From an uncultured Patescibacteria group bacterium (lineage in GTDB: Bacteria > Patescibacteriota > Microgenomatia > UBA10105 > UBA927), in contig CAKZSU010000006.1 in NCBI GenBank assembly GCA_937921305.1, forward strand, positions 136,646 through 178,729: DNA of 42,084 nt. The letters run 5' to 3'. The notes under the pieces were generated by a model. That model had not been told where the DNA came from, searched no databases, and worked only from the letters and a program-made list of their open reading frames with translations. Each line of letters begins with the position of its first letter. The stretch's first letter is position 1. Shown piece by piece: positions 1,305 to 35,647 of this stretch. The translations under genes and the position numbers were made by a program.

Positions 1305-1305
1305 G

Positions 1306-8480: not shown

Positions 8481-8518
8481 ACTCTGGATACGTAGAATTT
8501 TAAATAAAAATGTATATA

Positions 8519-8547
8519 TTGACAAGAATTATTTTTTTTCTTAAAAT
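8519..8547 (+). promoter_or_regulatory. Sigma70-like promoter of the orphan ORF
   Basis: TTGACA (8519-8524), 17-nt spacer, TAAAAT (8542-8547). Confidence 0.6.
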
Positions 8548-17988: not shown

Positions 17989-18035
17989 GCTTCGCTCACC
18001 CCCTTTCTTGGATAGAACCACTTATTCATATCATG

Positions 18036-21592: not shown

Positions 21593-21596
21593 TACT

Positions 21597-22196
21597 ATGA
21601 GAGGATTTACCCTCCTTGAATTTATTCTTGCCATCTTTCTTTTTTCAAGCATCGTTGGATTTGTTTCCTTCTTTTTTATTTCATATCTTCAAACCTACTC
21701 TTTCTCTTTTGAACATCAACGAATTATCAATGAAGCGCAAGGAGGAATGACACAGATGATTCGAGAAATACGAAAAATCAGAAATGGAGACAATGGATCA
21801 TGGCCGATTATTCAAGCGGACGATTTCTCATTTGCATTTTATGCAGATGTCACGAATGATGGACGAACCGATAGAGTCAGATATTTTCTTGATGGAACAG
21901 AACTTAAACGAGGAGTCATTGAACCAACTGCAGTGCCTGTTTCCTACCCTCTTCAGAATGAAACAATTACCACAATTGCTCGATTTGTTCACGCAACATC
22001 ATCAGCAATATTTCGCTATTACAACGGCGATTGGCCGGGAGACACGATCAATAATCCCCTTTCTCCTTCTCAGCGAGTCCTCAATACGCGATTTGTGGAA
22101 GTTACGCTCACGATTTATCCACCTAGTCAATCTGTCACAAAACCATTTACGCTTTCAAGCGGCGTCACAATACGAAGCATGAAAACGAATTTATAA
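21597..22196 (+). CDS. Minor pilin (PilW-like)
   Basis: RG|FTLLEFILA, MIREIR, RVRYFLDGTELKRG. Confidence 0.82.
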   Translation: MRGFTLLEFILAIFLFSSIVGFVSFFFISYLQTYSFSFEHQRIINEAQGGMTQMIREIRKIRNGDNGSWPIIQADDFSFAFYADVTNDGRTDRVRYFLDGTELKRGVIEPTAVPVSYPLQNETITTIARFVHATSSAIFRYYNGDWPGDTINNPLSPSQRVLNTRFVEVTLTIYPPSQSVTKPFTLSSGVTIRSMKTNL

Positions 22197-22206
22197 CAAT
22201 CAACAT

Positions 22207-23595
22207 ATGAGGAAATATCATAAAAAAATCTCAGAGGGAAGCATCTCAATACTTGTCCTCCTCTTCGGATTTATCGCGTCAATCGTTGTCGGAAGTCTCG
22301 CAGTTATCGCGAGCGTTCAATATAACAATTCAATACGGCTTGATGTGTACGAACGAGCGCTTAATATCGCACAATCCGGCGTTGAATATTACCGGTGGCA
22401 TCTTGCTCATGATCCTGTCGATTTTACCGATGGCACAGGAGGACCGGGACCGTATATCCATCAATTGCGAGATCCGTACGGAAATACCGAAGGAACATTT
22501 AGTTTGATGATTACGCCTCCAGCGTCCGGATCATCCATTGTTACCATCGAATCAACAGGATGGTTAAACAGCCATCCCGATATAAAAAGAAAAATTGTCG
22601 CGCGATACGGAATCCCATCTCTTGCAAGATTTTCATTTCTTCATAACGCCAATGTGTGGTTTGGCTCTGGAATCACCGTACAGGGAAAAGTTATGTCAAA
22701 TGGAGGTATTCGCATGGATGGAACGAACTTGTCAACAGTCACTAGTGCAAAAGCGACCTACACCTGCGGATCGGAAACTGGATGCAGTCCGCCCCAACAA
22801 CGAAACGGCATATGGGGAAACGGAGGACCGTCAAATCTCTGGCAATTTCCCGTACCTGCCATAGATTTTGCCAGTCTAAATGTCGATTTCAATACCATGA
22901 GAAGCAACGCGCAATCTCGAGGATTATATCTTGCTCCATCAAACGCGCTTGGTTACCAGATTATCTTTCAATCAAATGGAACTTACATTGTCCGACGAGT
23001 AACATCGGCAAACAATCAACGCGGGTATAGCGTAGAAAATGGATGCGAAAATCTTACACAACAAATAACCAATGAAACAACCATAGGAACATACACGATT
23101 GCGGAACGTCCCCTTATTTTTGCTGAAGACCATGTATGGGTAGAAGGAATCGTTAATGGAAAAGTGACAGTCGTCGCCGCACGATTTCCACTAAATGTCA
23201 ATTTTATGAATATCTGGATCCGAAACAGCATTACCTATATCTCAAAAGACGGACACTCAAATCTTGGACTATTCGCGCAAAATAATATTTATTTCGCAAA
23301 AGATGTGCCAAACAATTTTGAAATCAACGCGGCGCTTCTCGCGTCATCAGGAAGAATTATTCGACATAATTATAGATACAGCGGGTGCAGCAATTTTAGC
23401 AACGCAGTGAGAAATAGTCTAACTATTTACGGAGCCGTTATTAGCAATCAGAAATCTTACTGGAATTTTGGCACAGGTCCAACATCGGGATTCATCACCA
23501 GAAGCATCACGTATGATTCAAATCTTTACTTTGATCCTCCTCCATATTTTCCCGCCCAAGGAGCCTATGAATTCATCTCGTGGACAGAACAGTAA
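22207..23595 (+). CDS. PilX-like minor pilin with a large beta-rich C-terminal domain
   Basis: EG|SISILVLL (no Glu5, as in PilX/GspK), ALNIAQSGVEY, C-terminal YDSNLYFDPPPYFP. Confidence 0.78.
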   Translation: MRKYHKKISEGSISILVLLFGFIASIVVGSLAVIASVQYNNSIRLDVYERALNIAQSGVEYYRWHLAHDPVDFTDGTGGPGPYIHQLRDPYGNTEGTFSLMITPPASGSSIVTIESTGWLNSHPDIKRKIVARYGIPSLARFSFLHNANVWFGSGITVQGKVMSNGGIRMDGTNLSTVTSAKATYTCGSETGCSPPQQRNGIWGNGGPSNLWQFPVPAIDFASLNVDFNTMRSNAQSRGLYLAPSNALGYQIIFQSNGTYIVRRVTSANNQRGYSVENGCENLTQQITNETTIGTYTIAERPLIFAEDHVWVEGIVNGKVTVVAARFPLNVNFMNIWIRNSITYISKDGHSNLGLFAQNNIYFAKDVPNNFEINAALLASSGRIIRHNYRYSGCSNFSNAVRNSLTIYGAVISNQKSYWNFGTGPTSGFITRSITYDSNLYFDPPPYFPAQGAYEFISWTEQ

Positions 23596-23605
23596 TGCTT
23601 AAATC

Positions 23606-24820
23606 TTATCTCTTTCCTTGCATAGATTCTTGAAAATTCCCAACAACGCTGTATATTGGCGCGATGATTGAAAGAATCATTATTCCAACGGCAATACCAA
23701 CCAATAACATCATGATCGGTTCAATAATCTGCGTTAACCCTTTAACTTCTTCTTCAACTTCTTCTTCATAAAATGACGCAAGATCCGCCATTGTTTCATC
23801 AAGTGTCGCCGTCTTCTCTCCAGCGGCAACCATCTGAACAAACAACGAGGAAAACACTCCGGTTTCTTTGATCGCTGTTGACAAAGACTTTCCTTTTCGT
23901 ATTTCACTCGGAATCCGTTCACGCATAGAACGATATTGTTTCCATGTCAAAAGAGAAAATGATATCTCCAACGCTTCTGTAATCGGAACGGCACTTCGAA
24001 TAAGCGTGGAGAAAATTCGACAGAATCTTGCCAAATCAATTTTCTTAATTAAATTTCTTATGATCGGAATGTATCCTAAAAGTTTAATTATTCCATCTCG
24101 AAACGATCGCGTCTTCATTCCAAAAAAGAGCAATATAAGAAAGCCAATCGCTCCTAATACAATTGGAAACATGTACGAAGAAAGCGCAATCGACGCGGTA
24201 AACATCATTTTCGTAAAAAATGGAAGCGGAAGCGACAAGCTCAAAAATACTTTTCCTATTTGGGGCAGGATAAAGAAAAACATCAAAATTCCTATGCCAA
24301 TCATTGCAAGAAACACAATAGCAGGATACAACATTGCTCCTTTAATTTTTGATTTCAAACTGTGTTCAGATCGAAGCTCCACTTCTAAATAATGAAAGAC
24401 TTCCGAAAGTTTTCCGCTTACCTCTCCCGCTTTCATGAGCGTCAAAAAATACGCTTCAAAGACAGAAGGATATCGCTCAAAAATTACTGACAATGGTTGC
24501 CCCTGCTCTAATCCATATTCCATGTCGCTAAGAATTCTTTTCATGAGGGGATGTTTGGTCTCTCTTTTTAAGACATCTATTCCTTCAGAAAGAGAAAGAC
24601 CAGTCGAAAGCATAATGTGCATGTATCGACAGAAGGTAATCTTTTCTACTTCAGGAATGCTTCCGCCAATGAATGACCGCTCAACAATAGGCTTAATGAC
24701 CAACGGCGTAAGCATTTTGCCAGATAATTGATGCGCAACATCGTCTATGTTCTTTCCGGAGACAATGCCTTCAACAATATGTTTTTCTTTATCAATAGCT
24801 TTATAAGTGAAATTTGGCAT
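23606..24820 (-). CDS. pilC: Type IV pilus platform protein PilC / GspF
   Basis: AGEVSGKL, AMLYPAIV, ARFCRIFSTL, MVAAGEKTATL, IEPIMM. Confidence 0.92.
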   Translation of the reverse strand: MPNFTYKAIDKEKHIVEGIVSGKNIDDVAHQLSGKMLTPLVIKPIVERSFIGGSIPEVEKITFCRYMHIMLSTGLSLSEGIDVLKRETKHPLMKRILSDMEYGLEQGQPLSVIFERYPSVFEAYFLTLMKAGEVSGKLSEVFHYLEVELRSEHSLKSKIKGAMLYPAIVFLAMIGIGILMFFFILPQIGKVFLSLSLPLPFFTKMMFTASIALSSYMFPIVLGAIGFLILLFFGMKTRSFRDGIIKLLGYIPIIRNLIKKIDLARFCRIFSTLIRSAVPITEALEISFSLLTWKQYRSMRERIPSEIRKGKSLSTAIKETGVFSSLFVQMVAAGEKTATLDETMADLASFYEEEVEEEVKGLTQIIEPIMMLLVGIAVGIMILSIIAPIYSVVGNFQESMQGKR

Positions 24821-24831
24821 AGGCAAGATTG

Positions 24832-26505
24832 TTATTCACGGACAACACGAAGTACTTCCTCGATGCTTGTTAAGCCACTACTTGCTTTGCTTATGCCATC
24901 TTGCAATAACGAAACCATACCATATTGTTTTGCTAATTCGAGAATCTGCATTGTCGATTCTCGTTTTGCGATAAGATTCCGCATATCATCGGTAATTTCT
25001 ATAATCTCAAAAATTCCAATTCTTCCCTTGTACCCACGCATGCCACAATCTTCGCATCCGACGCTTTTATAAAATGAACGAGGAATATCTTGGTTTCCTA
25101 CGGATTCACGAAGAAACGAAAGCATGTCATCGGACAATTCAACGCGTTGAATGCACCGAGGGCACAACCGACGAACCAACCGTTGAGCAATCACCATCGT
25201 AAGTGTTGACGAAAGAAGAAATCCCTCCACGCCCATATCTAAAAAACGCGGAATAGCGCCTATCGCGTCATTTGTATGCAAAGTGGATAAAACCAAATGT
25301 CCGGTAAGCGAAGAATGAATTGCCATTTCTGCTGTTTCTTGATCGCGAATTTCCCCCACCATAATGACATCCGGATCGTGACGAAGAAGCGCCCGAAGAC
25401 CAGCGGCAAAAGTAAGTCCAGCTAATGGATTAATCTGAATCTGATTCACGCGCTTTATGCCATATTCCACCGGGTCTTCCACTGTGCATATTTTTACATC
25501 TGCCTTATTTAACATGGTTAAAATACTATAAAGCGTTGTCGTTTTTCCCGATCCTGTTGGTCCAGTCACAAGAATCAACCCATGCGGCTTCGTGATATTT
25601 CGTTTTACTATAGAAAGATTATTTTCTGTAAGTCCAAGTTCTTCAAATGATAACGGACGAGCAGATTCCGCAAGCAATCGAAGCACGACATTTTCCCCAT
25701 AAAACGCGGGCAGAATAGAAACACGAAGCGCAACATATTGCTCTTTCAATTTAAACTTGAATCGTCCATCTTGAGGAACTCGATGTTCATCGATTTTCAA
25801 AAATGAAAGAATTTTTATGCGAGCGACAATCCCAGCATGAATGTTCTTTGGCAAAGAAACAATATCATGAAGCATCCCGTCAATTCTAAATCGAACTAAA
25901 AATGCGTCTTCCAACAGTTCAAAATGAATATCTGACGCTCCTTCGGAAACCGCGTATTCAAGAATCGTATCGAGAATTCGAACAACAGGAAGATCTTTGC
26001 CAGAAGAAATTTCTCCTTGAATCGTTTTGCTTGCTTGAATATTTTCGTTAATAATAGATTGAAACACTTCTTTTATATTTTTTTTATATTGTCCGATCGC
26101 TTTCAAAATATCTTGCTTTCTTGCGTAATACACCCGCAATTGATATCCTGTCTTTCTTTTTACAAACTCTTTTGCCTCTAAATCCGATGGGTCTTCCATG
26201 GCAAGAGACAATTCCTCTCCTTCCAACGCAAAGGGAACAATATGAAAAGAAGATGCCGCTTCTTCCGGAATAACATTCAAAACACTGAGAGGAATCACTT
26301 TTCGAGATATATCAATGTACGGAACATGATAGAATTCAGCAATTAACCTTCCGATGATATCTTCTGTCAACAATCCTTGATATACCAATACATCTTGAAT
26401 ATCTTTGCCGAGCTCATGAGCAGACGATTCAGCGATCTCAAAATCTTTTTGAGAAACAAATCCAGAAGAGAGAATAATATCTCGAAACTGGGCAGCGGTA
26501 AACAT
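24832..26505 (-). CDS. pilB: Type IV pilus assembly ATPase PilB / GspE
   Basis: ASDIHFE, PQDGRF, GPTGSGKTTTLY, TVEDPVEY, LRHDPDVIMVGEIRD, GHLVLSTLHTN, and two CxxC zinc motifs. Confidence 0.95.
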   Translation of the reverse strand: MFTAAQFRDIILSSGFVSQKDFEIAESSAHELGKDIQDVLVYQGLLTEDIIGRLIAEFYHVPYIDISRKVIPLSVLNVIPEEAASSFHIVPFALEGEELSLAMEDPSDLEAKEFVKRKTGYQLRVYYARKQDILKAIGQYKKNIKEVFQSIINENIQASKTIQGEISSGKDLPVVRILDTILEYAVSEGASDIHFELLEDAFLVRFRIDGMLHDIVSLPKNIHAGIVARIKILSFLKIDEHRVPQDGRFKFKLKEQYVALRVSILPAFYGENVVLRLLAESARPLSFEELGLTENNLSIVKRNITKPHGLILVTGPTGSGKTTTLYSILTMLNKADVKICTVEDPVEYGIKRVNQIQINPLAGLTFAAGLRALLRHDPDVIMVGEIRDQETAEMAIHSSLTGHLVLSTLHTNDAIGAIPRFLDMGVEGFLLSSTLTMVIAQRLVRRLCPRCIQRVELSDDMLSFLRESVGNQDIPRSFYKSVGCEDCGMRGYKGRIGIFEIIEITDDMRNLIAKRESTMQILELAKQYGMVSLLQDGISKASSGLTSIEEVLRVVRE

Positions 26506-26509
26506 GAGT

Positions 26510-26896
26510 TTATTGTATCGAAAGATACGATTTTATTTTATTCACTAATTCTGTTGGAGAAATATTCGCTTTTACGATGAATTCATTCGCGCCAAGTTCC
26601 AACGCCCTCTTCATTTCTGACTCTTGCGCGAGATTTGAGTATACAATAATCGGAACCTGCTTCAACACATCATGGCGCCGAAGAGTTTCAAGGACACTGA
26701 ACCCATCCATCTTTGGCATCATAATATCAAGCAGAATAAGATCGGGACGCTCTTGCTCAGCAATTCTAAGTCCTTCTTCTCCATTACCTGCGGACAATAC
26801 TTTAAACCCATCGGCGACAAGCCTGGTTGTATAAATCTTTACGATTAATGAATCATCTTCTATAAGAAGGATCTTTTTCATAAACATGTCTATCAT
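26510..26896 (-). CDS. Single-domain (CheY-like) response regulator
   Basis: ILLIEDD, PDLILLDIMMPKMDG, FIVK, with no output domain. The true start may be ATG 26887 or 26881. Confidence 0.92.
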   Translation of the reverse strand: MIDMFMKKILLIEDDSLIVKIYTTRLVADGFKVLSAGNGEEGLRIAEQERPDLILLDIMMPKMDGFSVLETLRRHDVLKQVPIIVYSNLAQESEMKRALELGANEFIVKANISPTELVNKIKSYLSIQ

Positions 26897-26902
26897 ACCA
26901 TA

Positions 26903-29035
26903 TTATGTCGCTATAGGAAGCGTGAAATAAAACGTTGAACCTTTTCCAATTTCAGATTCAAGCCAGATTTCACCCTCGAGTCCTTCAATGATTTTTTTAC
27001 AAATATATAACCCCAATCCTGTACCTCCTATTGTTTTTGTATAGTCGGTGCGAACTTGAGAATATTTTTTAAACAATAAATCAAAATGCTCTTTATGAAT
27101 TCCTGTTCCCGTGTCAGAAACTGATGTAACAACATATTTTCCATCAACGAAGCAACGAATCGTTACGCCTCCTTTTGATGTAAATTTAATAGCGTTCCCA
27201 ACAAGATTCACAAGAACTTCTCGAACTTTATCATCATCGCCAAACACGAGAGGAAGATTCTCTGAACTTTCAAAGTGAAGACGAAGATGTTTTTCATTTG
27301 CGCCAAACTCAAAATTTCTCAGAACATCAGCGATAAGAATATTTAAATTAATTCGAGAAATTGTAAAAGACAATGTGCCCGAATCTATCTTTGACGTGTT
27401 GAGTAGATTGTTGACGATACGAATTAACCGATCATTTTCATTGTACGCTGCGGTTAAAAAGTCTCTCGCTTCATCTGAAATCGACCCGGCATATCCTTCT
27501 AAAATTGTCGAAATAGATCCTTTTATCGCAGCCATGGGAGTTCGCAATTCATGTGCCGCAACAGATACGAACTCATCTTTTAATTTAATCAATTCCTGAA
27601 GCCTATTATTTGTTTCTTTCAATTCTTTTGTGGCTTTTTCTATCTCTCGTTGCAAATTTTCATTAAACTTTTTTATTGCCTCATACGATTGAGCGTTTCT
27701 AATAGCAACAGCGGCTTCATGAGAAACAATCTCAATCAACGCAATATCTTGGTTCATATAGCTTTCCCCAGATTGTTTAATTCCTAAAAATAAATATGCG
27801 ACACATTCGTCTCTTGTCTTGCATGGAGCAATAAGTCTTATACCATGTTGTCGCATATACTCTTTTGTGTCTGATTCTTCAAGCTCATCAAACAGAATCA
27901 ATGATTCTGTGTGCAAGCATTCACAATCTTCCTTTTTAAGAGAAGACATAAAATGTTTAGGGACAGCAAATATGCGAAAATAATGATTCTTTTCAGGGAT
28001 AACCAATGCTGATGAAGAAGGCTTAAGAACGGAAGAAAGTTCTTCAATTAATCGATGTGAGAGATCATCGAGGACAATTGTTGATGTGATGCTTTTTGTA
28101 ATATGAGCAATTGCGTCATCAATATCGTATGTATCTTTAAATAATAATCGGGCTGTTAATTTCTGAACTCTTTTTTTAATCCATTGAAATGATAAGGAAA
28201 TAAAAACAATGAAAGCGATAATCAACACTTGCTCTTCTGGACGAAGAGAAACCCCAAATAAGATTTTTCCAATCAAAACAACAACAAACGCATAAAATAA
28301 AGCAATCAATATAAGCATGAAGACATACGTAAAAGCTCGAAGAAGAAATATATGTAAATCGAGTAGTTTATGACGAACAATGGCATAACTGGTGAATCCG
28401 ACAAAGACAAGCGTGTATATCGGCAAAAGTCTGACAAAACTTGTAATATTTAAAAATATGACAAAAAACACATTCGTCAAAAGAATTGCAAAAAACATAA
28501 AAAACGCTCCCCAAAATACCGTCCATATTTGTTTTTTTTGTATTCCATTTGATCTGCGAAGTTTTCTTATAAGAACGAAAAACCCGCCTCCCAAAAAACA
28601 TATGGTATGAAGAAGAAACAACGGCATGCCATAACTAGGCGTTATTTGTATCTTCCCATCAATCACCTGAACAGATGAAAAAACACCATTCGTCAATATA
28701 AGAGGAAAAAGACAAATTGTGAATAAAAACAATAAAAATTTCCATGTAAATGGAATTACATCTCGAGCATTCGGAAATGTAATCATGAAAAGAGCAAAGA
28801 AAAAATTAATAAGAAGCGCGATGGTCATAACAATTTTTACCCAAAAAAATGCCATATTGTTATCAATTTGATTATTCGCGATTTCATTTGTTGCAATATA
28901 CAGTGCAACGCTCAACGAAAAATAAAAGAACATTCTATTTGTCGCGCTTCTCGGGTTTTTTATGAGGATGAAAACGCCAAGAATGCTATTTGCCAAAAAA
29001 GCGAGCACTACAATAAATGATACGATGATATCCAT
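26903..29035 (-). CDS. Sensor histidine kinase with N-terminal multi-TM (HisKA_7TM-like) sensor, GAF, HisKA and HATPase domains
   Basis: About 290-aa hydrophobic N-terminus ending YAIVRHKLLD, GAF region (LGIKQSGESYMNQDIALI), AAHELRTP, NLVGNAIKF, DTGTGI, GTGLGL, GKGSTFYF. Confidence 0.92.
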   Translation of the reverse strand: MDIIVSFIVVLAFLANSILGVFILIKNPRSATNRMFFYFSLSVALYIATNEIANNQIDNNMAFFWVKIVMTIALLINFFFALFMITFPNARDVIPFTWKFLLFLFTICLFPLILTNGVFSSVQVIDGKIQITPSYGMPLFLLHTICFLGGGFFVLIRKLRRSNGIQKKQIWTVFWGAFFMFFAILLTNVFFVIFLNITSFVRLLPIYTLVFVGFTSYAIVRHKLLDLHIFLLRAFTYVFMLILIALFYAFVVVLIGKILFGVSLRPEEQVLIIAFIVFISLSFQWIKKRVQKLTARLLFKDTYDIDDAIAHITKSITSTIVLDDLSHRLIEELSSVLKPSSSALVIPEKNHYFRIFAVPKHFMSSLKKEDCECLHTESLILFDELEESDTKEYMRQHGIRLIAPCKTRDECVAYLFLGIKQSGESYMNQDIALIEIVSHEAAVAIRNAQSYEAIKKFNENLQREIEKATKELKETNNRLQELIKLKDEFVSVAAHELRTPMAAIKGSISTILEGYAGSISDEARDFLTAAYNENDRLIRIVNNLLNTSKIDSGTLSFTISRINLNILIADVLRNFEFGANEKHLRLHFESSENLPLVFGDDDKVREVLVNLVGNAIKFTSKGGVTIRCFVDGKYVVTSVSDTGTGIHKEHFDLLFKKYSQVRTDYTKTIGGTGLGLYICKKIIEGLEGEIWLESEIGKGSTFYFTLPIAT

Positions 29036-29134
29036 ATGCTTCTTCTAGCGTAACAAAAACATATTAAAAACACACCAGGAAAGCAAAGAAAGAAAATTCG
29101 GAGATAACCATTTAGTAATGGATAGAAAAATCCC

Positions 29135-30139
29135 TTAAAGATGAAACTTGTCTTTTAATTGTTGAATATATGCGTTACGCTGTTCTTGATGAGAATCAAG
29201 ATTGTATGAAGCGTCCAATAATTCATCAAGAGAAACAACATATCTTCCTGAACAAACATCTTCACCGAGACATATCTTTTTTATCGTTGTTGCCACAACA
29301 CCTCCAGCGATTGTCGCCGTCGCGCCAAGCTGAGGCCATGTCGGCAATGTTTCTCCTATTTGCACTATGGAAGCAAGCATTCTCTCGCTGTTATGATCAA
29401 ACCCCACAAGCTGAATGATGCATCGTCGTTTCTCATCTATTGAGAGCTTTTGAATATTTTTTATAATTTCTTCATCAATCCTTCCCAAAAACGGCTTCGG
29501 CATTGGATCTCTATCATATCGTTCAATATCAAGAATTACATTGTCTCCAACATCGGCAGCGCTTACCAAAGGAATTCTTTTCTTTTTTGCCATCATTCGC
29601 AAAAATACTTTTCCTTCGATATCATCAATTGCATCGATAATGCAATGGACTTCTGGATCATGAAACATTGTTTGCATATGAGAAACATCATCAAAATGAA
29701 TAACTTCAGCAAAAGGATTGATTTTAAGCAAAGTCTCTCTTACAACATTTACTTTTTTTCTTCCAACATCATCCCATCCACATCGCAATCTATTTAAGTT
29801 TGACGGATCTATCGTATCGGGATCCAAAATTTTTACCCTTTTTGCTCGCGACTCCATCATCCATGTGATAACAGCGTGACTCCCCACGCTTAACCCAAAA
29901 CATGCCACAATGAAATCTTGTAATCGTTTTTGCTCTTCAACCGTAATAAGATTTCTATTTCTCAATGTTGAAACAACAGTATAAACTTCTTCGTCTTCCT
30001 CAAGTTTTTTAAATCCACAAGCAATGTCTTGATCGCCAACATAATCATTGACGATCCGATCAAGAATGCTTCGCGAGTCTGAATCGACCATCGCGCTTTT
30101 TTGAAGATCTTTCATCAACGCAGAATATTTCGTTTTCAT
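29135..30139 (-). CDS. ThiF/E1-like adenylyltransferase, Rv1355c-like, without a nitroreductase domain
   Basis: RNRNLITVEEQKRL, FGLSVGS, DPDTIDPSNLNR, DIERYD, TWPQLG, SGRYVVSLD. Confidence 0.8.
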   Translation of the reverse strand: MKTKYSALMKDLQKSAMVDSDSRSILDRIVNDYVGDQDIACGFKKLEEDEEVYTVVSTLRNRNLITVEEQKRLQDFIVACFGLSVGSHAVITWMMESRAKRVKILDPDTIDPSNLNRLRCGWDDVGRKKVNVVRETLLKINPFAEVIHFDDVSHMQTMFHDPEVHCIIDAIDDIEGKVFLRMMAKKKRIPLVSAADVGDNVILDIERYDRDPMPKPFLGRIDEEIIKNIQKLSIDEKRRCIIQLVGFDHNSERMLASIVQIGETLPTWPQLGATATIAGGVVATTIKKICLGEDVCSGRYVVSLDELLDASYNLDSHQEQRNAYIQQLKDKFHL

Positions 30140-30142
30140 ACG

Positions 30143-31588
30143 TTATGCTGTTTTCTTTACTTTATTTAACGGAAAATATTGTTCATCGCTATGTTCATGA
30201 ACATGAATTATTGGATAAACTTTTTCTTTTAATGCTCCTAGAATATACGCATACTCCTTATTTAGTTTGCTCACTTCTTCAATGAAAACTTTCTGAATTC
30301 GTTTCATAAGATCAGCGCGCGGCGAAACATCTTTTTTCAATTCCACTCTGCAAACCAATACTTGTTGATGTGATTCATCTTCTTGAATTTCAAGCAAAAA
30401 TCTTCCAGAGATATATTGCTGAAGTTGTTCGTTATCAAATGCTTGCTGGACATGATCAACATAAATATTCGCTCCATACAGTTTAACCATAAACTTGCTT
30501 CTTCCAAACAGATATATCATGGGAAATTTCGGCAAGTCTATACTATGTGACGCAGAAAACAATCCCATTCGTTCTTGATCAACAACACCGCCCTCATCCT
30601 GAATATTATACCGAATCAACGGACACCCCATGTCTTTGGTAATAACAATCGTCCTTTCTTGACCTTCAAGATAAATCAACCGCGGATCAAAACAATATAA
30701 AGACGGCATTCTTGTGTCAGAAAAAAGATTTTCCCACGCGTGTTTTTCAAATACTTTCCTTCGTATCTCAATAGACTCTGGTGTTTCAAATCCCATCAAC
30801 GACGCGTCTGCCGATCCATACAAATTAATAATCGTTCGAGTGTGCGAATCGGCATGAATCATTCGAAGAAGATATGATCGCCATTGTTCAGTGATTCCTT
30901 GACCTGATCCCAATAATTTAATATGAAGCGACGAAAGATTAACATGTTGACGATCTGCTTCATCAATAATTTCCTTCAAAAATGGCGTGTGCCCGCAAAG
31001 AATTGTTTGATCAAATTGCGGAGATATGTCTCGAAGAATTTCGATGACATGATCTAACGAATATCCCGGCGTCATGATGGTCAAGGGATATCCCTTCCAG
31101 GAAACAAGATTCGCGCATGCAAGCGTAAATGTGCCAGCAATCCAATTTCCCATTGCAAAACCATTAATAAATAGCGTTCGCTTTTCATGAACAAAAAAAA
31201 TCGATCGAAAAATATACTCATGAATTTTCGCTCCATCTATCTCATGATTCAATGATCGCGGCCAATAATGTGCGCTTCCTGTTGTTCCAGAGCTTGTTGA
31301 AATCATCTGTACATCTTGATAGCTCCCATCCCACAGACGATCTCCTTCTGGATAGCGTTCTATATAATTTTCTTTAGATGTTTGAGGAATAGAAGAAAAA
31401 TCATTGATTGATCGAATCTTTGTATGATCAATATGATGAGATCGTAAAAACGCTTTATAGGCAGGGACTCGTTGTGCTGCTTCATGAAACAGTCGAAGCG
31501 CCTTTCTGGCTCCGATTTTTTGCATCACATCTTCGGGAGCATAAGGAGGAGCATTAAACCAATCAACGAGTCTCTTTTTATTCATCAT
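30143..31588 (-). CDS. Phenylacetate-CoA ligase (PaaK)-like ANL-family ligase
   Basis: RVPAY, STSSGTTG P-loop, FAMGNWIAG, NLYGSAD, PLIRYNIQD, FGRSK, GANIY. ATG at 31588 overlaps the lyase stop. Confidence 0.85.
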   Translation of the reverse strand: MMNKKRLVDWFNAPPYAPEDVMQKIGARKALRLFHEAAQRVPAYKAFLRSHHIDHTKIRSINDFSSIPQTSKENYIERYPEGDRLWDGSYQDVQMISTSSGTTGSAHYWPRSLNHEIDGAKIHEYIFRSIFFVHEKRTLFINGFAMGNWIAGTFTLACANLVSWKGYPLTIMTPGYSLDHVIEILRDISPQFDQTILCGHTPFLKEIIDEADRQHVNLSSLHIKLLGSGQGITEQWRSYLLRMIHADSHTRTIINLYGSADASLMGFETPESIEIRRKVFEKHAWENLFSDTRMPSLYCFDPRLIYLEGQERTIVITKDMGCPLIRYNIQDEGGVVDQERMGLFSASHSIDLPKFPMIYLFGRSKFMVKLYGANIYVDHVQQAFDNEQLQQYISGRFLLEIQEDESHQQVLVCRVELKKDVSPRADLMKRIQKVFIEEVSKLNKEYAYILGALKEKVYPIIHVHEHSDEQYFPLNKVKKTA

Positions 31589-33266
31589 ATTTTCCAAACT
31601 CGTTAAATACTGCTTTTCGAAGCATCTCGTTTATTTTTCCTGATTCGATTTCTTGATAGATTCGCTCTATGTCTTGATTCAAAGGGCGTTCTTCTTTTAC
31701 ATAGGAAACAATCGAACGAATATATTCATACATTGGACGCGTCCTCGGAGAAAGCAGTGATACCCCTTCGCGAAGATCAACTGCTTGAGCAATCGCAATC
31801 GCGTTCATCGCCAAAGAATATCGCAAAACACGAAGTCCCTCCCACGCAAAAAGAGCCGATGTTAATGAATGTGGCGTTATATCTTGATTGTGCTCCTCAT
31901 GAATGCCAAACATCGTTGTCACGGGATTCGCCAACAACATTGAATACACATCGAACATTCCCGACTGAAGCTGAACTCCCTTAAACGCGCACTGAGAGAT
32001 TGCCGATGAATCAGATAAATTCGCGGGGAGACCATTATTTAAATGAGGATTTAATAATCGATGCAATTGACGATCATTTCGCTTAATCAATCTTGTGATA
32101 ATTTTTCTCATTATATCTATGACTTCCCCCATGTGCATGGCAAAAAAATTTCCTCCGCTGACCCATTGCCAAGGTTCTTCCCCATCGACAGCATGTTCTG
32201 GCGTTACCCATAATGGATTGTCAGACACAGAATTTGCGTTAATGGTGATCGTCTCCAATGCCCAAGCGAGAAATTCTCTATTCACCGCTTCCGATTGCGG
32301 CAAACATCGAAGACTATACGCATCCTGGACCGATACGCCTTTTGGACGTTCTTGTTGTCCCTGTAGTTCCTGATATGCAAGTTTGCTTCCATGAAGCAAG
32401 TAACGATAAACTTTTGCTACTTCTTGCTGGCCTCTATGCGGACGAACATTTCCAAGAAATGGATGAAATGGACGCGTGCTCCCTCGAAGAACTTCAACCA
32501 TCATCGCTCCCAACACATCTGCAATCAACTGAAGACGCAACACATCAACAGCAATAAGCGTCGCCGCTGCTGTTGAAAAATTGTCTCCATTAACTAATCC
32601 AAGTCCAGCTTTTGGATCCAATTCTAGCTTCGGAATCTTATGATGCTTCAATGTCGTTCTCGCTGGCTTTTTCTGTCCATCGGCATCCCACACAAATACT
32701 CCATCTAGCTGACGCGCCGCGCTTACCACCCTGCTATTATGAGCAAGATCGCCAGACGCGCCAAGACCTCCATATGCATTCACAACCGGAATGATATCTT
32801 TGTTGAGCATTTGACGAAAGATATCAAGATCGGAAAGCTTCACAGCGCTTACTCCATGCAACAACATATTCATGCGAATCACCATGGCGGCGCGAACAAC
32901 TTCTTTTGGCAATATCGGTCCCACAGTAACATCCGTATGAACAATACTTTTTGAAATTTTCTGAGCAAATAATATTCGATCACTCGCTTCTCCTTCATTC
33001 ACAACATGGCCAGCTCTTGCCCCATACCCTGTGTTGCATCCATAAACAGGAACACCATCAATGACATTTTGCATCATCCGTTGATATGATTCTTCCACCC
33101 TTTTTAAAACAATAGGATTATCAGTAAACTCAATAGGAATTTTCTGATGCGCGACAGCAATAATATCTCGAACATGAAGAGTGGTTCCATCTAAAATAAT
33201 AAGAAAAGGAGGTAGAGCGATATCACGATCAATCTCAATGAGCGTTTTTTCTTTATATGTGCTCAT
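31578..33266 (-). CDS. MIO-dependent aromatic amino-acid ammonia-lyase/aminomutase (HAL/PAL/TAL family)
   Basis: VYGCNTGYG, GLGASGDLAH (ASG MIO triad, 32751-32759), KAGLGLVNG, QDAYSLRCLPQ, NSVSDNP, SGGNF, NNGLP, HNQD. ATG at 33266. Confidence 0.92.
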   Translation of the reverse strand: MSTYKEKTLIEIDRDIALPPFLIILDGTTLHVRDIIAVAHQKIPIEFTDNPIVLKRVEESYQRMMQNVIDGVPVYGCNTGYGARAGHVVNEGEASDRILFAQKISKSIVHTDVTVGPILPKEVVRAAMVIRMNMLLHGVSAVKLSDLDIFRQMLNKDIIPVVNAYGGLGASGDLAHNSRVVSAARQLDGVFVWDADGQKKPARTTLKHHKIPKLELDPKAGLGLVNGDNFSTAAATLIAVDVLRLQLIADVLGAMMVEVLRGSTRPFHPFLGNVRPHRGQQEVAKVYRYLLHGSKLAYQELQGQQERPKGVSVQDAYSLRCLPQSEAVNREFLAWALETITINANSVSDNPLWVTPEHAVDGEEPWQWVSGGNFFAMHMGEVIDIMRKIITRLIKRNDRQLHRLLNPHLNNGLPANLSDSSAISQCAFKGVQLQSGMFDVYSMLLANPVTTMFGIHEEHNQDITPHSLTSALFAWEGLRVLRYSLAMNAIAIAQAVDLREGVSLLSPRTRPMYEYIRSIVSYVKEERPLNQDIERIYQEIESGKINEMLRKAVFNEFGKYDE

Positions 33267-33331
33267 AATATTTTTTATATTGTATATCAAAATCAATATA
33301 AGTAAATACAACGTATTCAATATTGCTACTT

Positions 33332-33340
33332 TGATATAAT
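33332..33340 (+). promoter_or_regulatory. Extended -10 promoter of rnpB
   Basis: TGATATAAT, ending 6 nt before the P1 helix. Confidence 0.6.
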
Positions 33341-33346
33341 AGTATT

Positions 33347-33755
33347 GCCACCAAAACCCGATCCCTCACCTCTGGAAGAAAAATATCTTTTGGGGGAGGA
33401 AAGTCCAGACAGCACCATGGAGGGGACGGAACGCAAGTTCCGACTCGCGCAACATGCGAGATAGTGTCTTTATTGCGAAAGCGATGAAGAACGATTCCTG
33501 AATTGACAGGATGAGAGAGCCACAGAGACGAGCGAAAGCCTACGTCCAAACTTGGATATGGCTGACGAGTGAAACGAGTCTTCATATCAAAATTCCTTGA
33601 TATGAAGCATGGCAATCCCACCCGCTGCAACCGGCGAATTCATTGCAAAAATCCGATCCATGGCGGAGTCAATGAGAAGCATACGGGCATGAGAGAAATG
33701 AGGGGTTATTCACAATCGTGAAAAAACAGAATCTGGCTTACGAGGTTTTGGTGGC
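33347..33755 (+). ncRNA. rnpB: RNase P RNA
   Basis: GAGGAAAGTCCAGA and ACAGAATCTGGCTTA (P4 halves, compensatory pairing). P1 GCCACCAAAACC/GGTTTTGGTGGC, P2 CCCTCA/TGAGGG. Confidence 0.93.
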
Positions 33756-34733
33756 GCTTTGACTAACTTGTTTCTTCGATAAAACATGCTCAATAATTAT
33801 CTGGCCGGTCACAACGATTGGAACGGCCAAAAACGCCCCCATAACACCTTCAAATCGAGAGCCAATCATAAACGCAATGATAACAACAACCGGAGAGAGT
33901 CCAACGCTTCGCTTCATAACTTGTGGAACAATAAGATGATTTTCTAATTGTTGAATAATAAAATATAAAGCTGCGACAGACAGAGCCAAAAGTGGCGAAA
34001 CAGTAAAAGCTATGAGAATCGCTGGAATGGCACTTAACAGCGGACCGACAATTGGTAAGATTTCAAGAATTCCCGCCAACACCGCAAGCGGCAATGCGTA
34101 ATCAACACGAAGGAAAGAAAGGCCAATATATGTTACTACCCCGATAATAATCATCAACAACGCTTGTCCTCTTGCCCACGCGCCCAGTTTTTCTTCTAAT
34201 TTTTGAATAATCACTGTTATATCTTCAGCCATATGTTTAGGGACCCACTGATATATAGTCAATGCCAAGTGATTTCTCCCTAAAAGGAAATAAAAAGAAA
34301 AGACAAAAATCGTAATAAAGGTAATAATATTATTCACAAAGCGAACACTAAACTCAAAAATATTTCGTGTTATTGGAGCCAACTGACTAGTTAAAAATCC
34401 TTGATCAATATTTAATGAGGGAAGGATTGTTTCTGCTATACGAGGAATTCTTTGAATCAACAATGTTCCTTGAGCAACAAACTGAGGAATAAAACTCCCA
34501 AAAAATGCAACAATAAACCCAATGAGAGCGATATATACAAACAAAATTGCCAACACTCTCGGAATTCTGTAATTCGTTAACCATTCCACAGATGGCCGAA
34601 TGGCAGTGGCAAAAATAAATGAGATAAAAAGAAGATAAAGGATGTCTCGAATATGAAGGACAATCCACACACCAACAAGAACTCCAAGAATAAGAAAAAT
34701 CGTCCTGGGAGCAATATCAACAGTTCTATGCAT
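33738..34733 (-). CDS. AI-2E family transporter
   Basis: Multi-TM protein with WARGQ, EILPIVGP, IQQLENHLIVPQVM and LAVP. Confidence 0.9.
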   Translation of the reverse strand: MHRTVDIAPRTIFLILGVLVGVWIVLHIRDILYLLFISFIFATAIRPSVEWLTNYRIPRVLAILFVYIALIGFIVAFFGSFIPQFVAQGTLLIQRIPRIAETILPSLNIDQGFLTSQLAPITRNIFEFSVRFVNNIITFITIFVFSFYFLLGRNHLALTIYQWVPKHMAEDITVIIQKLEEKLGAWARGQALLMIIIGVVTYIGLSFLRVDYALPLAVLAGILEILPIVGPLLSAIPAILIAFTVSPLLALSVAALYFIIQQLENHLIVPQVMKRSVGLSPVVVIIAFMIGSRFEGVMGAFLAVPIVVTGQIIIEHVLSKKQVSQSATKTS

Positions 34734-34738
34734 ATGAA

Positions 34739-35647
34739 TTAAGAGGAAGTATACCACATATAAATGATTCGTTTCATATCTTCTTTATATCCTTCCTGAT
34801 TAATACAAAACCACCGAATATTCTGTTGTTTTTTAAACCATACCAATTGTCTTTTCGCGTACTGAATTTCATGACGAATCCATAACGCTATTGCTTCATT
34901 CTTGTGCTCATCGCTTGGGCTTTCCATGTAGCACTTCCATTCTTTATATCCAATCGTATTCATGGCTGGAAGATCCCATGTATATCCCATGGCAAGCAAT
35001 TGTTGTATCTCTTCTATAATTCCCTTATGAACACGATCCATAACGCGTTGAATAATTCGCTCTAAGAGATATTCTCCATCCGCAGTAAGACCTATTTGTA
35101 GGGTGTCAAATGATCGACGGTGATATTTAATATGCCGATTTTGATTCTCTTGCATAATCTCTATTTTACGTATCAATCGGCGTGGATTATTTCTGTCAGA
35201 ATTATTCATCATTTCCAAAACACTCTTCGGAACCATTTGTTGTAGTTCTTGAACAGACAAGTTTGCCAAACGACTTCGCAACGATTCATTTCTTGGAATA
35301 TTCACCGTGTCTATCCCCTCAACAAGCGCTTTTATGTATAATCCTGTGCCTCCGACAACAATCGGAAGCGAATTTTTTCTTTGGATTTCATAAATCAGCG
35401 ATACTGCAAGACGAAGAAAATGAGCAACAGAAAACTCTTCATCGGGATTCACTACATCATATAAATGAACACTACCTTTTCCATCTTTCCCTGTTCCTAT
35501 ATCCATGCCTCGATATACTTGTCTTGAATCAGCACTTATCACTTCTCCCTGAAACTCGCGAGCAATTTCAAGTGCAAAGTTCGTTTTTCCTGTTGCTGTT
35601 GGTCCAGTGACAACAAGAAGTTTGTTATGGCTACCTATATGTTCCAT
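34739..35647 (-). CDS. miaA: tRNA dimethylallyltransferase
   Basis: GPTATGKT, ISADSRQVYRGMDIGT, VGGTGLY, IGYKE, YAKRQ. Confidence 0.95.
   Translation of the reverse strand: MEHIGSHNKLLVVTGPTATGKTNFALEIAREFQGEVISADSRQVYRGMDIGTGKDGKGSVHLYDVVNPDEEFSVAHFLRLAVSLIYEIQRKNSLPIVVGGTGLYIKALVEGIDTVNIPRNESLRSRLANLSVQELQQMVPKSVLEMMNNSDRNNPRRLIRKIEIMQENQNRHIKYHRRSFDTLQIGLTADGEYLLERIIQRVMDRVHKGIIEEIQQLLAMGYTWDLPAMNTIGYKEWKCYMESPSDEHKNEAIALWIRHEIQYAKRQLVWFKKQQNIRWFCINQEGYKEDMKRIIYMWYTSS

What the first reader, a model, noticed from the sequence alone, without database searches (positions are those of the whole stretch)
23606..33266. Candidate signal-synthesis and sensing module linked to type IV pilus assembly (MIO lyase, CoA ligase, ThiF, multi-TM kinase, receiver, PilB, PilC)
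Seen: seven co-oriented genes. Lyase and ligase overlap by 11 nt, ligase and ThiF are 3 nt apart, the kinase starts 99 nt later, and kinase-receiver-pilB-pilC are each separated by only a few nucleotides. Established: MIO lyases make cinnamate, coumarate or urocanate (or beta-amino acids). ANL ligases activate aryl acids. ThiF enzymes adenylate carboxylates, and the ThiF-nitroreductase enzyme OxzB cyclises N-acyl amino acids to oxazolones. Aryl-CoA-derived quorum signals such as p-coumaroyl-HSL are known. Inference: the three enzymes make a diffusible aryl-acyl molecule that the membrane-embedded sensor detects, and the receiver then gates pilus assembly (host attachment or DNA uptake). Dedicated secondary metabolism is surprising in what looks like a reduced CPR genome. 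No LuxI or FeeM-type acyltransferase and no hutU/I/G or paa catabolic gene is in this window, so the chemistry does not match a textbook pathway.
Basis: partly seen in the sequence, partly recalled or inferred. Interest (0 to 1): 0.88.

Follow-up and report, generated by a model that had tools for sequence, protein, structure and literature searches.

The report
Small-molecule synthase, membrane kinase, pilus operon
A tiny candidate-phyla-radiation bacterium encodes enzymes that probably build an oxazolone-type molecule from an aromatic amino acid right next to a many-pass membrane sensor kinase, a receiver and a second pilus motor, an arrangement that recurs across its relatives and looks like a signal maker and receptor pair.

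Summary
Seven tightly spaced minus-strand genes encode a MIO lyase, a PaaK-fold ligase, a short Rv1355c/TrzS-type ThiF, a HisKA_7TM histidine kinase, a stand-alone receiver, PilB and PilC.

The enzyme-kinase link holds across genomes. In 401 genomes of the class, the ligase occurs in 30 and the kinase sensor in 85. Of the 30 ligase genomes, 29 also have the kinase. In 27 of 30 the ligase lies 0.1-3.3 kb upstream on the same strand.

The cassette varies in 33 ligase loci read with flanks:
- ThiF in 31
- nitroreductase-type oxidase in 17
- MIO lyase in 14
- amino acid dehydrogenase in 7

Ligase-free kinase loci carry ThiF-oxidase fusions, ThiF plus a FeeM-type N-acyl amino acid synthase, histidine decarboxylase or methyltransferases.

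The chemistry best matches the OxzAB/TyzACB/TrzAS N-acyl-oxazolone pathways, with the ligase replacing the acyltransferase. The published role of those products is still open.

The pilus link is narrower. pilB lies nearby in 12 of 33 ligase loci, in two arrangements. Receiver-pilB pairing persists with other kinases.

Sensing, product identity and pilus gating are inferred. I found no expression data and no binding support.

The parts
31578..33266 (-). MIO-dependent aromatic amino acid ammonia-lyase (or aminomutase), 562 aa from the ATG at 33266
   Evidence: PF00221 E 2.9e-109 over profile 1-465 of 466. The Ala-Ser-Gly triad and the YG catalytic Tyr align to Anabaena PAL 2nyn. His-Thr sits at the Phe-Leu selectivity-switch position, and the His is kept in 9 of 9 close homologues. 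The motif NQD is present rather than the HAL-type. Start codon.
30143..31597 (-). PaaK-fold adenylate-forming ligase, 484 aa from the TTG (481 aa from the ATG at 31588)
   Evidence: No Pfam family at E 0.01. TIGR02155 PaaK E 2.4e-11 and FlxY E 1.2e-8, both far below cut-off. PDB profile hits to PaaK 4r1l at 4e-10. Foldseek hits to PaaK1 at 1.6e-19, and also to NatL2, AjiA1 and ClxA. S103, G104 and G107 of the SSGTTG loop are invariant across 7 sequences.
29135..30139 (-). Stand-alone ThiF-like ATP-dependent cyclase, homologous to the cyclase half of Rv1355c/TrzS
   Evidence: NF005901 E 3.3e-57 on profile positions 81-353 of 722; the next best ThiF model scores E 7.7e-15. The nucleotide-site residues G82, S84, G86, D108, N114, N116, R117, K129 and D172 are at least 92% conserved over 26 homologues. 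No oxidase half is present, and no nitroreductase is found anywhere in the genome.
26903..29035 (-). Multi-pass membrane sensor histidine kinase: HisKA_7TM region, two further hydrophobic segments, a weak GAF-like region, HisKA, HATPase_c
   Evidence: PF16927 47.2 bits (cut-off 28.6), HisKA, HATPase_c; GAF only E 0.007. Eight hydrophobic 19-mers lie in residues 7-286, and the H-box is HELRTP at H495. tblastn with this kinase finds only one other kinase in the genome.
26510..26896 (-). Stand-alone receiver (CheY-like response regulator, 128 aa, no output domain)
   Evidence: PF00072 E 8.7e-28. D14, D15, D57 and K109 are invariant in 8 homologues. It is 63-71% identical in loci with pilB directly downstream and 34-38% in the two compared loci without it.
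24832..26505 (-). Accessory PilB-type type IV pilus extension ATPase with an MshEN N-terminal domain
   Evidence: T2SSE E 2.8e-134 and MshEN E 2.3e-17. TIGR02538 scores 570 bits, below the cut-off of 675. A second PilB at G000:C5:93504-95195 is 44-45% identical.
23606..24826 (-). PilC-type platform protein
   Evidence: T2SSF, two stretches, E 1.5e-52. A second pilC lies at C5:91205-92422, 31% identical.
33738..34757 (-). AI-2E family (PerM/TqsA-like) transporter directly upstream; a possible exporter, and part of the conserved frame miaB-miaA-AI2E-[cassette-kinase-receiver]-pilB-pilC
   Evidence: PF01594 E 1.2e-60. It holds the same position in L012, L013, L014, L078 and L108. Its role is inferred from position only.

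Best explanation
This is a synthase-receptor signalling module joined to an accessory type IV pilus motor.

Proposed path (inferred unless marked):
1. The MIO lyase removes ammonia from an aromatic amino acid. Tyrosine is most likely, because His occupies the selectivity switch. The product would be p-coumarate or cinnamate.
2. The PaaK-fold ligase adenylates that acid and joins it to the amino group of an amino acid. It thereby does the job of the acyl-CoA-dependent N-acyltransferases OxzA, TyzA and TrzA.
3. The ThiF enzyme adenylates the free carboxylate and closes a 2-substituted oxazol-5-one ring, as the homologous cyclases TyzB, OxzB and TrzS do. This genome has no flavin oxidase, so the ring would stay saturated, or the N-acyl amino acid itself may be the end product.
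4. The hydrophobic, labile product is sensed in the membrane by the HisKA_7TM kinase encoded next to it. It may leave the cell through the adjacent AI-2E-family transporter.
5. The kinase (H495) phosphorylates the stand-alone receiver (D57).
6. The receiver has no DNA-binding domain, so it would act on a protein target. In this lineage that target is most likely the accessory PilB/PilC pair that follows it.

Shown here: gene content, family assignments, intact catalytic motifs, and the conserved enzyme-kinase and receiver-pilB neighbourhoods.
Inferred: every chemical step, ligand sensing, and the pilus output.
For: (1) Linkage. The ligase is in 30 of 401 class genomes and the kinase sensor in 85 of 401. 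Of the 30 ligase genomes, 29 have the kinase. In 27 of 30 the ligase is 0.1-3.3 kb upstream on the same strand, and these genomes span 15 families. Among 33 ligase loci read with flanks, 30 have the kinase downstream, 2 end at a contig edge and 1 lacks it.

(2) The enzyme set varies around a ThiF core while the kinase stays. ThiF is in 31 of 33 loci, nitroreductase-type oxidase in 17, MIO in 14, ELFV dehydrogenase in 7, and neither MIO nor dehydrogenase in 12.

(3) The 26 ligase-free kinase loci also start with small-molecule enzymes:
- ThiF::nitroreductase fusions: L078, L083
- ThiF: L079, L082, L085, L086
- ThiF plus FeeM N-acyl amino acid synthase: L091, PF21926 28.9 bits, cut-off 27
- pyruvoyl histidine decarboxylase: L080, same genus
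- SAM methyltransferases: 8 loci

(4) A Saccharibacteria contig carries two such units in tandem: ThiF-ligase-kinase, and an unknown protein-HDC-kinase.

(5) The window ThiF matches the Rv1355c (TrzS) family at E 3.3e-57. TrzS, TyzB and OxzB are shown cyclases of N-acyl amino acids (PMC12856293 abstract and section 4; PMC10404671 abstract; PMC12596934 passages).

(6) Streptomyces has ligase-ThiF-nitroreductase trios, with the ligase in the acyltransferase's place.

(7) A MIO lyase paired with a PaaK-like coumarate-activating ligase has a precedent in FlxA/FlxY (PMC3992019 passages).

(8) Receiver-pilB pairing recurs. HK-RR-pilB-pilC and pilB-pilC-RR-enzymes-HK arrangements both occur. In 4 of 5 genomes with this PilB clade but no 7TM kinase, a receiver still lies just before pilB or within about 1 kb of it. 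Three of these also have a different kinase in the same co-oriented run, directly before the receiver in two and two genes further upstream in one.

(9) The genome has few alternatives. tblastn finds only 2 kinases and 3 receivers. No catabolic partners were found.

(10) Ligase and kinase-sensor divergence are correlated over 27 loci: Mantel r 0.51, with 0 of 2000 permutations reaching it. Shared ancestry alone could give this.
Against: - No product, expression or binding datum exists.
- Neighbourhood conservation shows a functional link, not its direction. The kinase could sense something else.
- The window locus lacks the flavin oxidase found in characterised oxazolone pathways, and none is found in the genome. 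So a defining partner is missing here and in 15 of the 31 ThiF-bearing loci.
- The ligase's closest characterised relatives by sequence make CoA thioesters (PaaK, FlxY). Amide formation is inferred from gene position only.
- CoaE was not found, but two GNAT acetyltransferases are present. CoA is therefore probably available, and its use cannot be excluded.
- pilB is not nearby in 21 of 33 ligase loci, so the pilus cannot be the general output.
- The kinase's cytoplasmic GAF-like region could sense an internal ligand instead. It is absent in L020 and L027.
- Related genomes are not independent, so counts overstate the support.
Confidence: 0.5

Rival explanations
1. The cassette makes a specialised metabolite with another role, such as an antimicrobial, a host-directed compound or an envelope lipid-like molecule. 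The kinase-receiver pair senses an unrelated external cue. The genes travel together because the two-component system controls when the metabolite is made or used, not because the kinase binds it.
For: Published oxazolones have no known receptor. They have been discussed as lipids or as stress-related molecules (PMC12856293 discussion passages; bioRxiv 10.1101/2020.06.11.147165 passage). Outside the candidate phyla radiation, the ligase-nitroreductase and ligase-ThiF-nitroreductase modules occur without this kinase: 0 of about 40 non-CPR loci have the 7TM sensor.
Against: The receiver has no DNA-binding or enzymatic output domain, so transcriptional control of the cassette is not obvious. The kinase family is preceded by many unrelated enzyme types. 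That pattern is easier to explain if the enzyme product is the input.
Confidence: 0.2
2. Host-metabolite conversion sensing. The enzymes do not make a self-signal. They convert amino acids released by a host cell (Tyr/Phe here, His or others in variants) into a ligand for the kinase, so the module reports host proximity and triggers the pilus.
For: Every recognisable first enzyme consumes a free amino acid: MIO lyase, ELFV dehydrogenase, pyruvoyl histidine decarboxylase. The genome is 0.97 Mb, which suggests dependence on partners (dependence is inference). Pili of related episymbionts are used for host contact (recalled, no call).
Against: Nothing separates this reading from self-signalling with the present data. 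The multi-step ATP-consuming route (two adenylating enzymes) is costly for a mere sensor front end.
Confidence: 0.15
3. Protein or peptide modification. The E1-like ThiF and the adenylating ligase modify the C-terminus of a peptide or protein (RiPP-like, or a pilin or kinase modification) rather than a free small molecule.
For: Many ThiF-like enzymes act on peptide C-termini, for example MccB and PaaA (PMC12596934 passages).
Against: The ThiF matches the Rv1355c/TrzS small-molecule cyclase family far better than other ThiF models: 194 against 55 bits. No conserved short ORF was found, and the 125-aa ORF at 33253-33630 has no family and no homologue in related loci. A MIO lyase, a dehydrogenase or a FeeM partner each points to free amino acid chemistry.
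Confidence: 0.07
4. Catabolism. The lyase and ligase are remnants of aromatic amino acid or histidine degradation, and their position next to the kinase is incidental.
For: The best NCBIfam hits are to phenylalanine and histidine ammonia-lyases and to PaaK, all below cut-off.
Against: No urocanase and no PaaA/PaaC were found in the 97%-complete genome, with controls positive. The lyase lacks the HAL-type residues. The neighbourhood is conserved across 15 families.
Confidence: 0.03

Closest known systems
N-acyl oxazolone pathways OxzAB (Pseudoalteromonas rubra), TyzACB and TrzAS (Mycobacterium tuberculosis Rv2336-38c and Rv1356c/Rv1355c)
   Same: The ThiF-like ATP-dependent cyclase is of the same NCBIfam family. 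A nitroreductase-type flavin oxidase is adjacent or fused in 17 of 33 related loci. An enzyme able to supply an N-acyl amino acid sits next to it.
   Different: The acyl-CoA N-acyltransferase is replaced by a PaaK-fold ligase. An acid-supplying MIO lyase or an amino acid dehydrogenase is added. The window genome has no oxidase. The cassette is coupled to a histidine kinase, which the passages I read of the published systems do not mention.
CqsA/CqsS (Vibrio) and LqsA/LqsS/LqsR (Legionella) alpha-hydroxyketone signalling (recalled from memory, no call)
   Same: The logic is the same. A dedicated synthase is encoded beside a many-pass membrane histidine kinase that senses its hydrophobic product, with a receiver-type regulator.
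   Different: The synthase families are unrelated: no PLP aminotransferase-like enzyme is among the seven proteins. The sensor domain family differs (HisKA_7TM), as does the presumed chemistry. Sensing is not shown here.
FlxA/FlxY of flexirubin biosynthesis (Chitinophaga pinensis)
   Same: A tyrosine ammonia-lyase works with a PaaK-like ligase that activates 4-coumarate (PMC3992019 passages). Both NCBIfam models give weak hits here.
   Different: FlxY feeds a polyketide-like chain extension through CoA. Here there is no synthase for chain extension, and the next gene is a ThiF cyclase.
PaaK-family enzymes NatL2, AjiA1 and ClxA of benzoxazole pathways
   Same: They share the predicted fold: Foldseek E 3e-16 to 6e-14. 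From memory, they couple an adenylated aryl acid directly to a nucleophile without CoA.
   Different: Sequence identity is only 14-15%. The substrates and the following heterocycle-forming enzyme differ.
p-Coumaroyl-homoserine lactone signalling RpaI/RpaR
   Same: An aryl acid derived from an aromatic amino acid would be the acyl part of a signal.
   Different: No LuxI-type synthase was found, but the control genomes gave no hit either, so that search is uninformative. The receptor here is a membrane kinase, not a LuxR-type regulator.

Membership tests
MIO-dependent aromatic amino acid lyase/aminomutase (PF00221) | Full-length match to the family profile above the curated cut-off | tested here: met
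   366 bits against a cut-off of 27.3, over profile 1-465 of 466.
MIO-dependent aromatic amino acid lyase/aminomutase (PF00221) | Ala-Ser-Gly triad that forms the MIO group, and the catalytic Tyr loop | tested here: met
   GASGDL and YG(C)NTGYG align to Anabaena PAL 2nyn. They are kept in 10 of 10 aligned homologues.
Histidine ammonia-lyase (HutH) | HAL-type substrate residues, and a urocanase partner in the genome | tested here: not met
   TIGR01225 scores 276 bits against a cut-off of 539. His-Thr and NQD are present in place of the HAL pattern; the HAL pattern itself is recalled from memory. No urocanase was found in the genome, with controls positive.
Tyrosine ammonia-lyase / tyrosine aminomutase | His at the selectivity-switch position (His89 of Rhodobacter TAL) | tested here: inconclusive
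   His aligns with Phe107 of Anabaena PAL (the residue number is recalled). It is kept in 9 of 9 close homologues. The role of this switch is taken from a passage of PMC9002059. TAL- and TAM-specific NCBIfam models are far below cut-off. Lyase and mutase cannot be told apart here.
PaaK-type ANL adenylate-forming enzyme | PaaK fold with the Ser/Thr/Gly-rich phosphate loop | tested here: met
   Foldseek PaaK1 E 1.6e-19, TM 0.54-0.62, on a model of pLDDT 70.5. S103, G104 and G107 are invariant across 7 sequences.
Phenylacetate-CoA ligase PaaK (equivalog TIGR02155) | Score above the equivalog cut-off; CoA thioester formation | tested here: not met
   42.8 bits against 646.3. The chemistry is not testable with these tools.
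Oxazolone-forming ThiF cyclase (TyzB / OxzB / TrzS; NCBIfam NF005901 Rv1355c family) | Membership of the cyclase clade and an intact ATP site | tested here: met
   194 bits on the cyclase half, against 55 bits for the next ThiF model. The score is below the whole-protein cut-off of 476 because the oxidase half is absent. Nucleotide-site residues are conserved. The equivalent of TrzS Asp217 could not be aligned, because no TrzS sequence was in hand.
Oxazolone pathway (OxzAB/TyzACB/TrzAS) | Adjacent or fused flavin-dependent oxidase of the nitroreductase superfamily | tested here: not met
   None in the window locus and none found in the genome (tblastn; PF00881, with controls positive in 14 of 14). 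It is present in 17 of 33 related ligase loci.
Oxazolone pathway (OxzAB/TyzACB/TrzAS) | Adjacent N-acyl amino acid synthase of the acyltransferase type | tested here: not met
   No PF13444 and no PF21926 match in the genome. A FeeM-type gene does precede the same kinase family in L091. I infer that the ligase substitutes for it here.
HisKA_7TM sensor histidine kinase | 7TM N-terminal region, H-box, ATPase domain | tested here: met
   PF16927 47.2 bits (cut-off 28.6); HisKA 60.6 bits; HATPase_c 96.1 bits. H495 lies in HELRTP.
Type IV pilus extension ATPase PilB and platform PilC | T2SSE ATPase with an N-terminal MshEN/GSPII-type domain; two T2SSF repeats | tested here: met
   The PilB equivalog model scores 570 bits, under its cut-off of 675. 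This fits a divergent paralogue.
Synthase-receptor quorum-sensing pair of the Cqs/Lqs kind | The product of the adjacent synthase is the kinase's ligand | not testable with these tools
   Only the conserved adjacency is shown.

The most novel reading that the evidence does not exclude
Candidate-phyla-radiation bacteria carry a modular chemical signalling system. One family of HisKA_7TM kinases is paired, locus by locus, with interchangeable small-molecule synthases: ligase/ThiF/oxidase oxazolone-type cassettes, FeeM plus ThiF, histidine decarboxylase, methyltransferases. Each pair would be a different signal-receptor couple. The oxazolone-type cassettes would then give the first receptor, and the first physiological role, for bacterial oxazolones. 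In some lineages the output is an accessory type IV pilus used for partner contact or DNA uptake.
Probability: 0.35. Interest if true: 0.9.

Novelty: new variant of a known kind. Interest (0 to 1): 0.72.

Why it matters
The authors of the oxazolone work call the physiological role of bacterial N-acyl oxazolones a major unresolved question. They suggest signalling but have no receptor (PMC12856293 discussion passages; bioRxiv 10.1101/2020.06.11.147165 passage).

Here homologous cyclase cassettes sit directly before one family of membrane kinases in many genomes. This names a concrete candidate receptor that can be tested in vitro.

The genome is 0.97 Mb, and I found only two kinases in it. A four-gene investment in a signal and its sensor would therefore be a major part of this organism's behaviour. 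The link to a second pilus motor points at partner attachment or DNA uptake, which are central and poorly understood traits of these uncultivated bacteria.

The ligase-ThiF-nitroreductase module in Streptomyces, and the nitroreductase-ligase pairs in Acidobacteriota, suggest an unexplored ATP-dependent route to N-acyl amino acid derived heterocycles.

Tried and rejected
Receiver-PilB binding. Complex prediction with alignments of both proteins gave 'no answer': best score 0.30, mark 0.32. This is neither for nor against binding.

Expression. The look-up of sequencing runs listed no RNA holder, only 9 DNA runs from 4 studies.

Promoter and terminator scans of 23000-35000 gave nothing above shuffles. 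No Rfam family or tRNA lies inside the locus.

The 436-aa partner of ThiF::nitroreductase in L078 remains unexplained. It has no Pfam family, no profile similarity to the ligase (hhalign probability 0.6%) and no usable Atlas hit.

CoA availability as a discriminator was dropped. CoaE was not found, but two GNATs are present, so it says little.

The LuxI search was uninformative, because the model hit none of the control genomes.

Kinases near the ligase in three Pyrinomonadaceae loci are not of the 7TM sensor family.

The 125-aa ORF at 33253-33630 has no family and no homologue in the related loci searched. I treat it as probably non-coding.

The PilB neighbour count is a lower bound, because 430 matches were not listed. 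I therefore counted pilB only in loci I fetched.

Literature. Searches found no paper in the held library that describes this module in Patescibacteria (0 papers). Subscription journals and supplements were not searchable. The supplementary network figures of PMC12856293 may show ligase-type neighbours or CPR sequences that I could not see.

Full report
**Observation.** The window is G000:C6:136646-178729 of a 0.97-Mb genome that is 97% complete, in 10 contigs. Titles of related public contigs place its relatives among Microgenomates-type candidate phyla: Gottesmanbacteria, Daviesbacteria and Woesebacteria.

Pfam and NCBIfam confirm six of them. The 'CoA ligase' has no Pfam hit. It is PaaK-like weakly by sequence and clearly by predicted fold.

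Co-orientation itself is weak evidence. The same strand carries 14 consecutive genes up to recA. Promoter and terminator scans do not exceed shuffles.

**The enzymes.**
- *Lyase.* It has the Ala-Ser-Gly triad and the catalytic Tyr loop. At the Phe-Leu selectivity switch of Anabaena PAL it has His-Thr. The His is kept in 9 of 9 close homologues. A His at this place makes the Rhodobacter enzyme tyrosine-selective (PMC9002059 passage). The HAL-type pattern is absent, and no urocanase was found in the genome. No PaaA was found either.
- *ThiF.* It is only the cyclase half of the Rv1355c family: E 3.3e-57 over profile positions 81-353 of 722. Its nucleotide-site residues are conserved. Rv1355c is TrzS, a ThiF cyclase fused to a flavin oxidase. 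It turns N-acyl tryptophan into an oxazolone, and TyzB/TyzC and OxzB do the same for tyrosine.
- *What the genome lacks.* No nitroreductase-type oxidase and no FeeM-type or Acetyltransf_5 acyltransferase were found.

**Comparative evidence for an enzyme-kinase unit.**

Among 60 relatives, the ligase is in 6, each time next to a homologue of the kinase.

In a sample of 401 genomes of the class, the ligase is in 30 and the kinase sensor region in 85. The second tally includes one unpublished genome, G108. Of the 30 ligase genomes, 29 have the kinase. In 27 the ligase lies 0.1-3.3 kb upstream on the same contig and strand. In 2 the two genes are on different short contigs, and 1 has no kinase. 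The 30 genomes fall in 15 families.

I read 33 ligase loci with flanks. Their content:
- ThiF-like in 31
- nitroreductase-type oxidase in 17, fused to ThiF in 4
- MIO lyase in 14
- Glu/Leu/Phe/Val-type dehydrogenase in 7
- neither lyase nor dehydrogenase in 12

All 14 lyase-ligase-ThiF loci have the kinase downstream. So do three more from the public scan (L018, L019, L020); a fourth ends inside the ligase.

Outside these phyla, the ligase stands with ThiF and nitroreductase in Streptomyces. It stands with nitroreductase alone in Acidobacteriota, Burkholderia and others. In none of these is the 7TM kinase present.

**Kinase loci without the ligase.** Of 26 read, the genes just upstream are:
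- ThiF::nitroreductase fusions with an unknown 363-436-aa protein (L078, L083)
- ThiF-like proteins (L079, L082, L085, L086)
- ThiF plus a FeeM-type N-acyl amino acid synthase (L091)
- a pyruvoyl histidine decarboxylase with an unknown protein (L080, same genus as the window)
- SAM methyltransferases, including an NNMT/PNMT type (8 loci)
- NAD-dependent dehydrogenase-like proteins (L081, L098)
- proteins without any family (8 loci)

A Saccharibacteria contig has two units in tandem: ThiF-ligase-kinase, and unknown-decarboxylase-kinase. Its kinases, and that of L020, lack the GAF-like part. So the 7TM region is the shared sensor element.

**Reading of the chemistry.** The known oxazolone pathways have three parts: acyltransferase, ThiF cyclase and oxidase. 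In the Streptomyces trios and in these loci the ligase stands where the acyltransferase would be. In L091 a true FeeM-type synthase does.

I therefore infer that the ligase makes the N-acyl amino acid by ATP-dependent coupling of a free acid. That acid would be supplied by the lyase (an aryl-acrylic acid) or by the dehydrogenase (a 2-oxo acid). PaaK-fold enzymes that activate coumarate are known (FlxY). From memory, NatL2, AjiA1 and ClxA couple without CoA. A CoA thioester product is not excluded.

**The pilus link.** PilB here is a second paralogue. The genome has another pilB-pilT-pilC set on contig C5.

pilB lies in the fetched stretch in 12 of 33 ligase loci, in two arrangements: kinase-receiver-pilB-pilC, and pilB-pilC-receiver(opposite strand)-enzymes-kinase. 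It also lies in the fetched stretch in 5 of 26 ligase-free kinase loci.

I also read five genomes that have this PilB clade but no 7TM kinase. In four, a receiver lies just before pilB or within about 1 kb of it. Three of those four also have a different kinase in the same co-oriented run: directly before the receiver in two, and two genes further upstream in the third.

The receiver is 63-71% identical among loci where pilB follows it. It is 34-38% identical in the two compared loci where pilB does not.

This supports the receiver acting on this pilus system where the two are linked. The enzyme-kinase-receiver unit also exists on its own, with the operon ending at the receiver.

**What is not shown.** There is no product, no transcript, no ligand binding and no receiver-PilB contact. 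The complex prediction gave no answer and no RNA run was listed; both are recorded only under Tried and rejected. Ligase and sensor divergence are correlated over 27 loci (Mantel r 0.51, 0 of 2000 permutations), but common descent alone can give this. Related genomes are not independent.

**Comparison and novelty.** By enzyme content the closest systems are OxzAB, TyzACB and TrzAS. By logic the closest are the Cqs and Lqs synthase-kinase pairs (recalled from memory).

The window fails two membership features of the oxazolone pathway: it has no oxidase and no acyltransferase. So I file it as a variant that probably works like one, not as a member.

I found nothing in the held library that describes this module. 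Supplements were closed.

The authors of the oxazolone papers state that the role of these molecules is unresolved and raise signalling as a possibility. A kinase family systematically encoded after such cassettes makes that idea testable.

**Verdict.** I rate it a new variant of a known kind, interest 0.72, with confidence 0.5 in the synthase-receptor-pilus reading.

Noticed in passing
window 6645-8525 (-): A class II Asp/Lys/Asn-type aminoacyl-tRNA synthetase (tRNA-synt_2, E 1e-111) carries a C-terminal YbaK-type tRNA_edit domain (E 1.4e-34). This is an unusual fusion for this synthetase type.
   Followed up: no
L080:9901-11492 (same genus as the window) and L027:13241-16502 (Saccharibacteria contig): A second kind of enzyme-kinase unit. 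A pyruvoyl histidine decarboxylase (PF02329, E 3.5e-35 and 2.1e-40) with an unknown 237-255-aa protein lies directly before a HisKA_7TM kinase. In L027 it stands in tandem with a ThiF-ligase-kinase unit. The two decarboxylases are 32% identical; the two unknown proteins show no similarity.
   Followed up: partly
L090, L092, L093, L094, L096, L097, L099, L101 (genes just upstream of the kinase): SAM-dependent methyltransferases sit directly before the same kinase family in 8 of the 26 ligase-free loci. One is of the NNMT/PNMT/TEMT small-molecule type (L094, E 2.9e-39) and three are Methyltransf_20.
   Followed up: partly
L078:4054-5364 (-) and L083:5703-6794 (-): A 363-436-aa protein with no Pfam family, no profile similarity to the ligase and no Atlas hit stands between a ThiF::nitroreductase fusion and the kinase. 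It may be another way to make the N-acyl amino acid.
   Followed up: partly
G381:C1:533262-535408 (L126): The kinase after an intact nitroreductase-ligase-ThiF cassette is broken by in-frame stops (1 TGA and 2 TAG in one piece, 1 TAG in another) in a single-contig genome. This may be a decaying receptor.
   Followed up: no
L023-L025 (Streptomyces); L028-L060, L063 (Acidobacteriota, Burkholderia, Bacteroidales and others): The ligase family forms ligase-ThiF-nitroreductase trios in three Streptomyces genomes. It forms nitroreductase-ligase pairs in most of the Acidobacteriota and Burkholderia loci. These look like an uncharacterised widespread module without the kinase.
   Followed up: partly
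G000:C5:91205-95195: The genome has a second pilB, a pilT-like gene and a second pilC on another contig. The window also holds pilM (18818-20233) and a prepilin (17560-18021). So the genome holds two sets of pilB and pilC genes.
   Followed up: partly
window 20279-23595 (+): Three plus-strand genes lie wedged between pilM and pilC. One is a 437-aa protein with CarboxypepD_reg-type domains. The other two, of 199 and 462 aa, have no family. They may be pilus-associated surface proteins.
   Followed up: no
L015 and L017 (record titles): Two public contigs are the same contigs as those of G041 and G033, by length and coordinates. G041 is in the window's order and G033 in its family. Their record titles say 'uncultured Gammaproteobacteria', which looks like a labelling error in the records.
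   Followed up: no
window 825-1376 (-): The longest ORF of the NADH-dehydrogenase 20-kDa-type protein (825-1331) overlaps tRNA-Gln (1305-1376) by 27 nt. Its true start is therefore probably further downstream.
   Followed up: no
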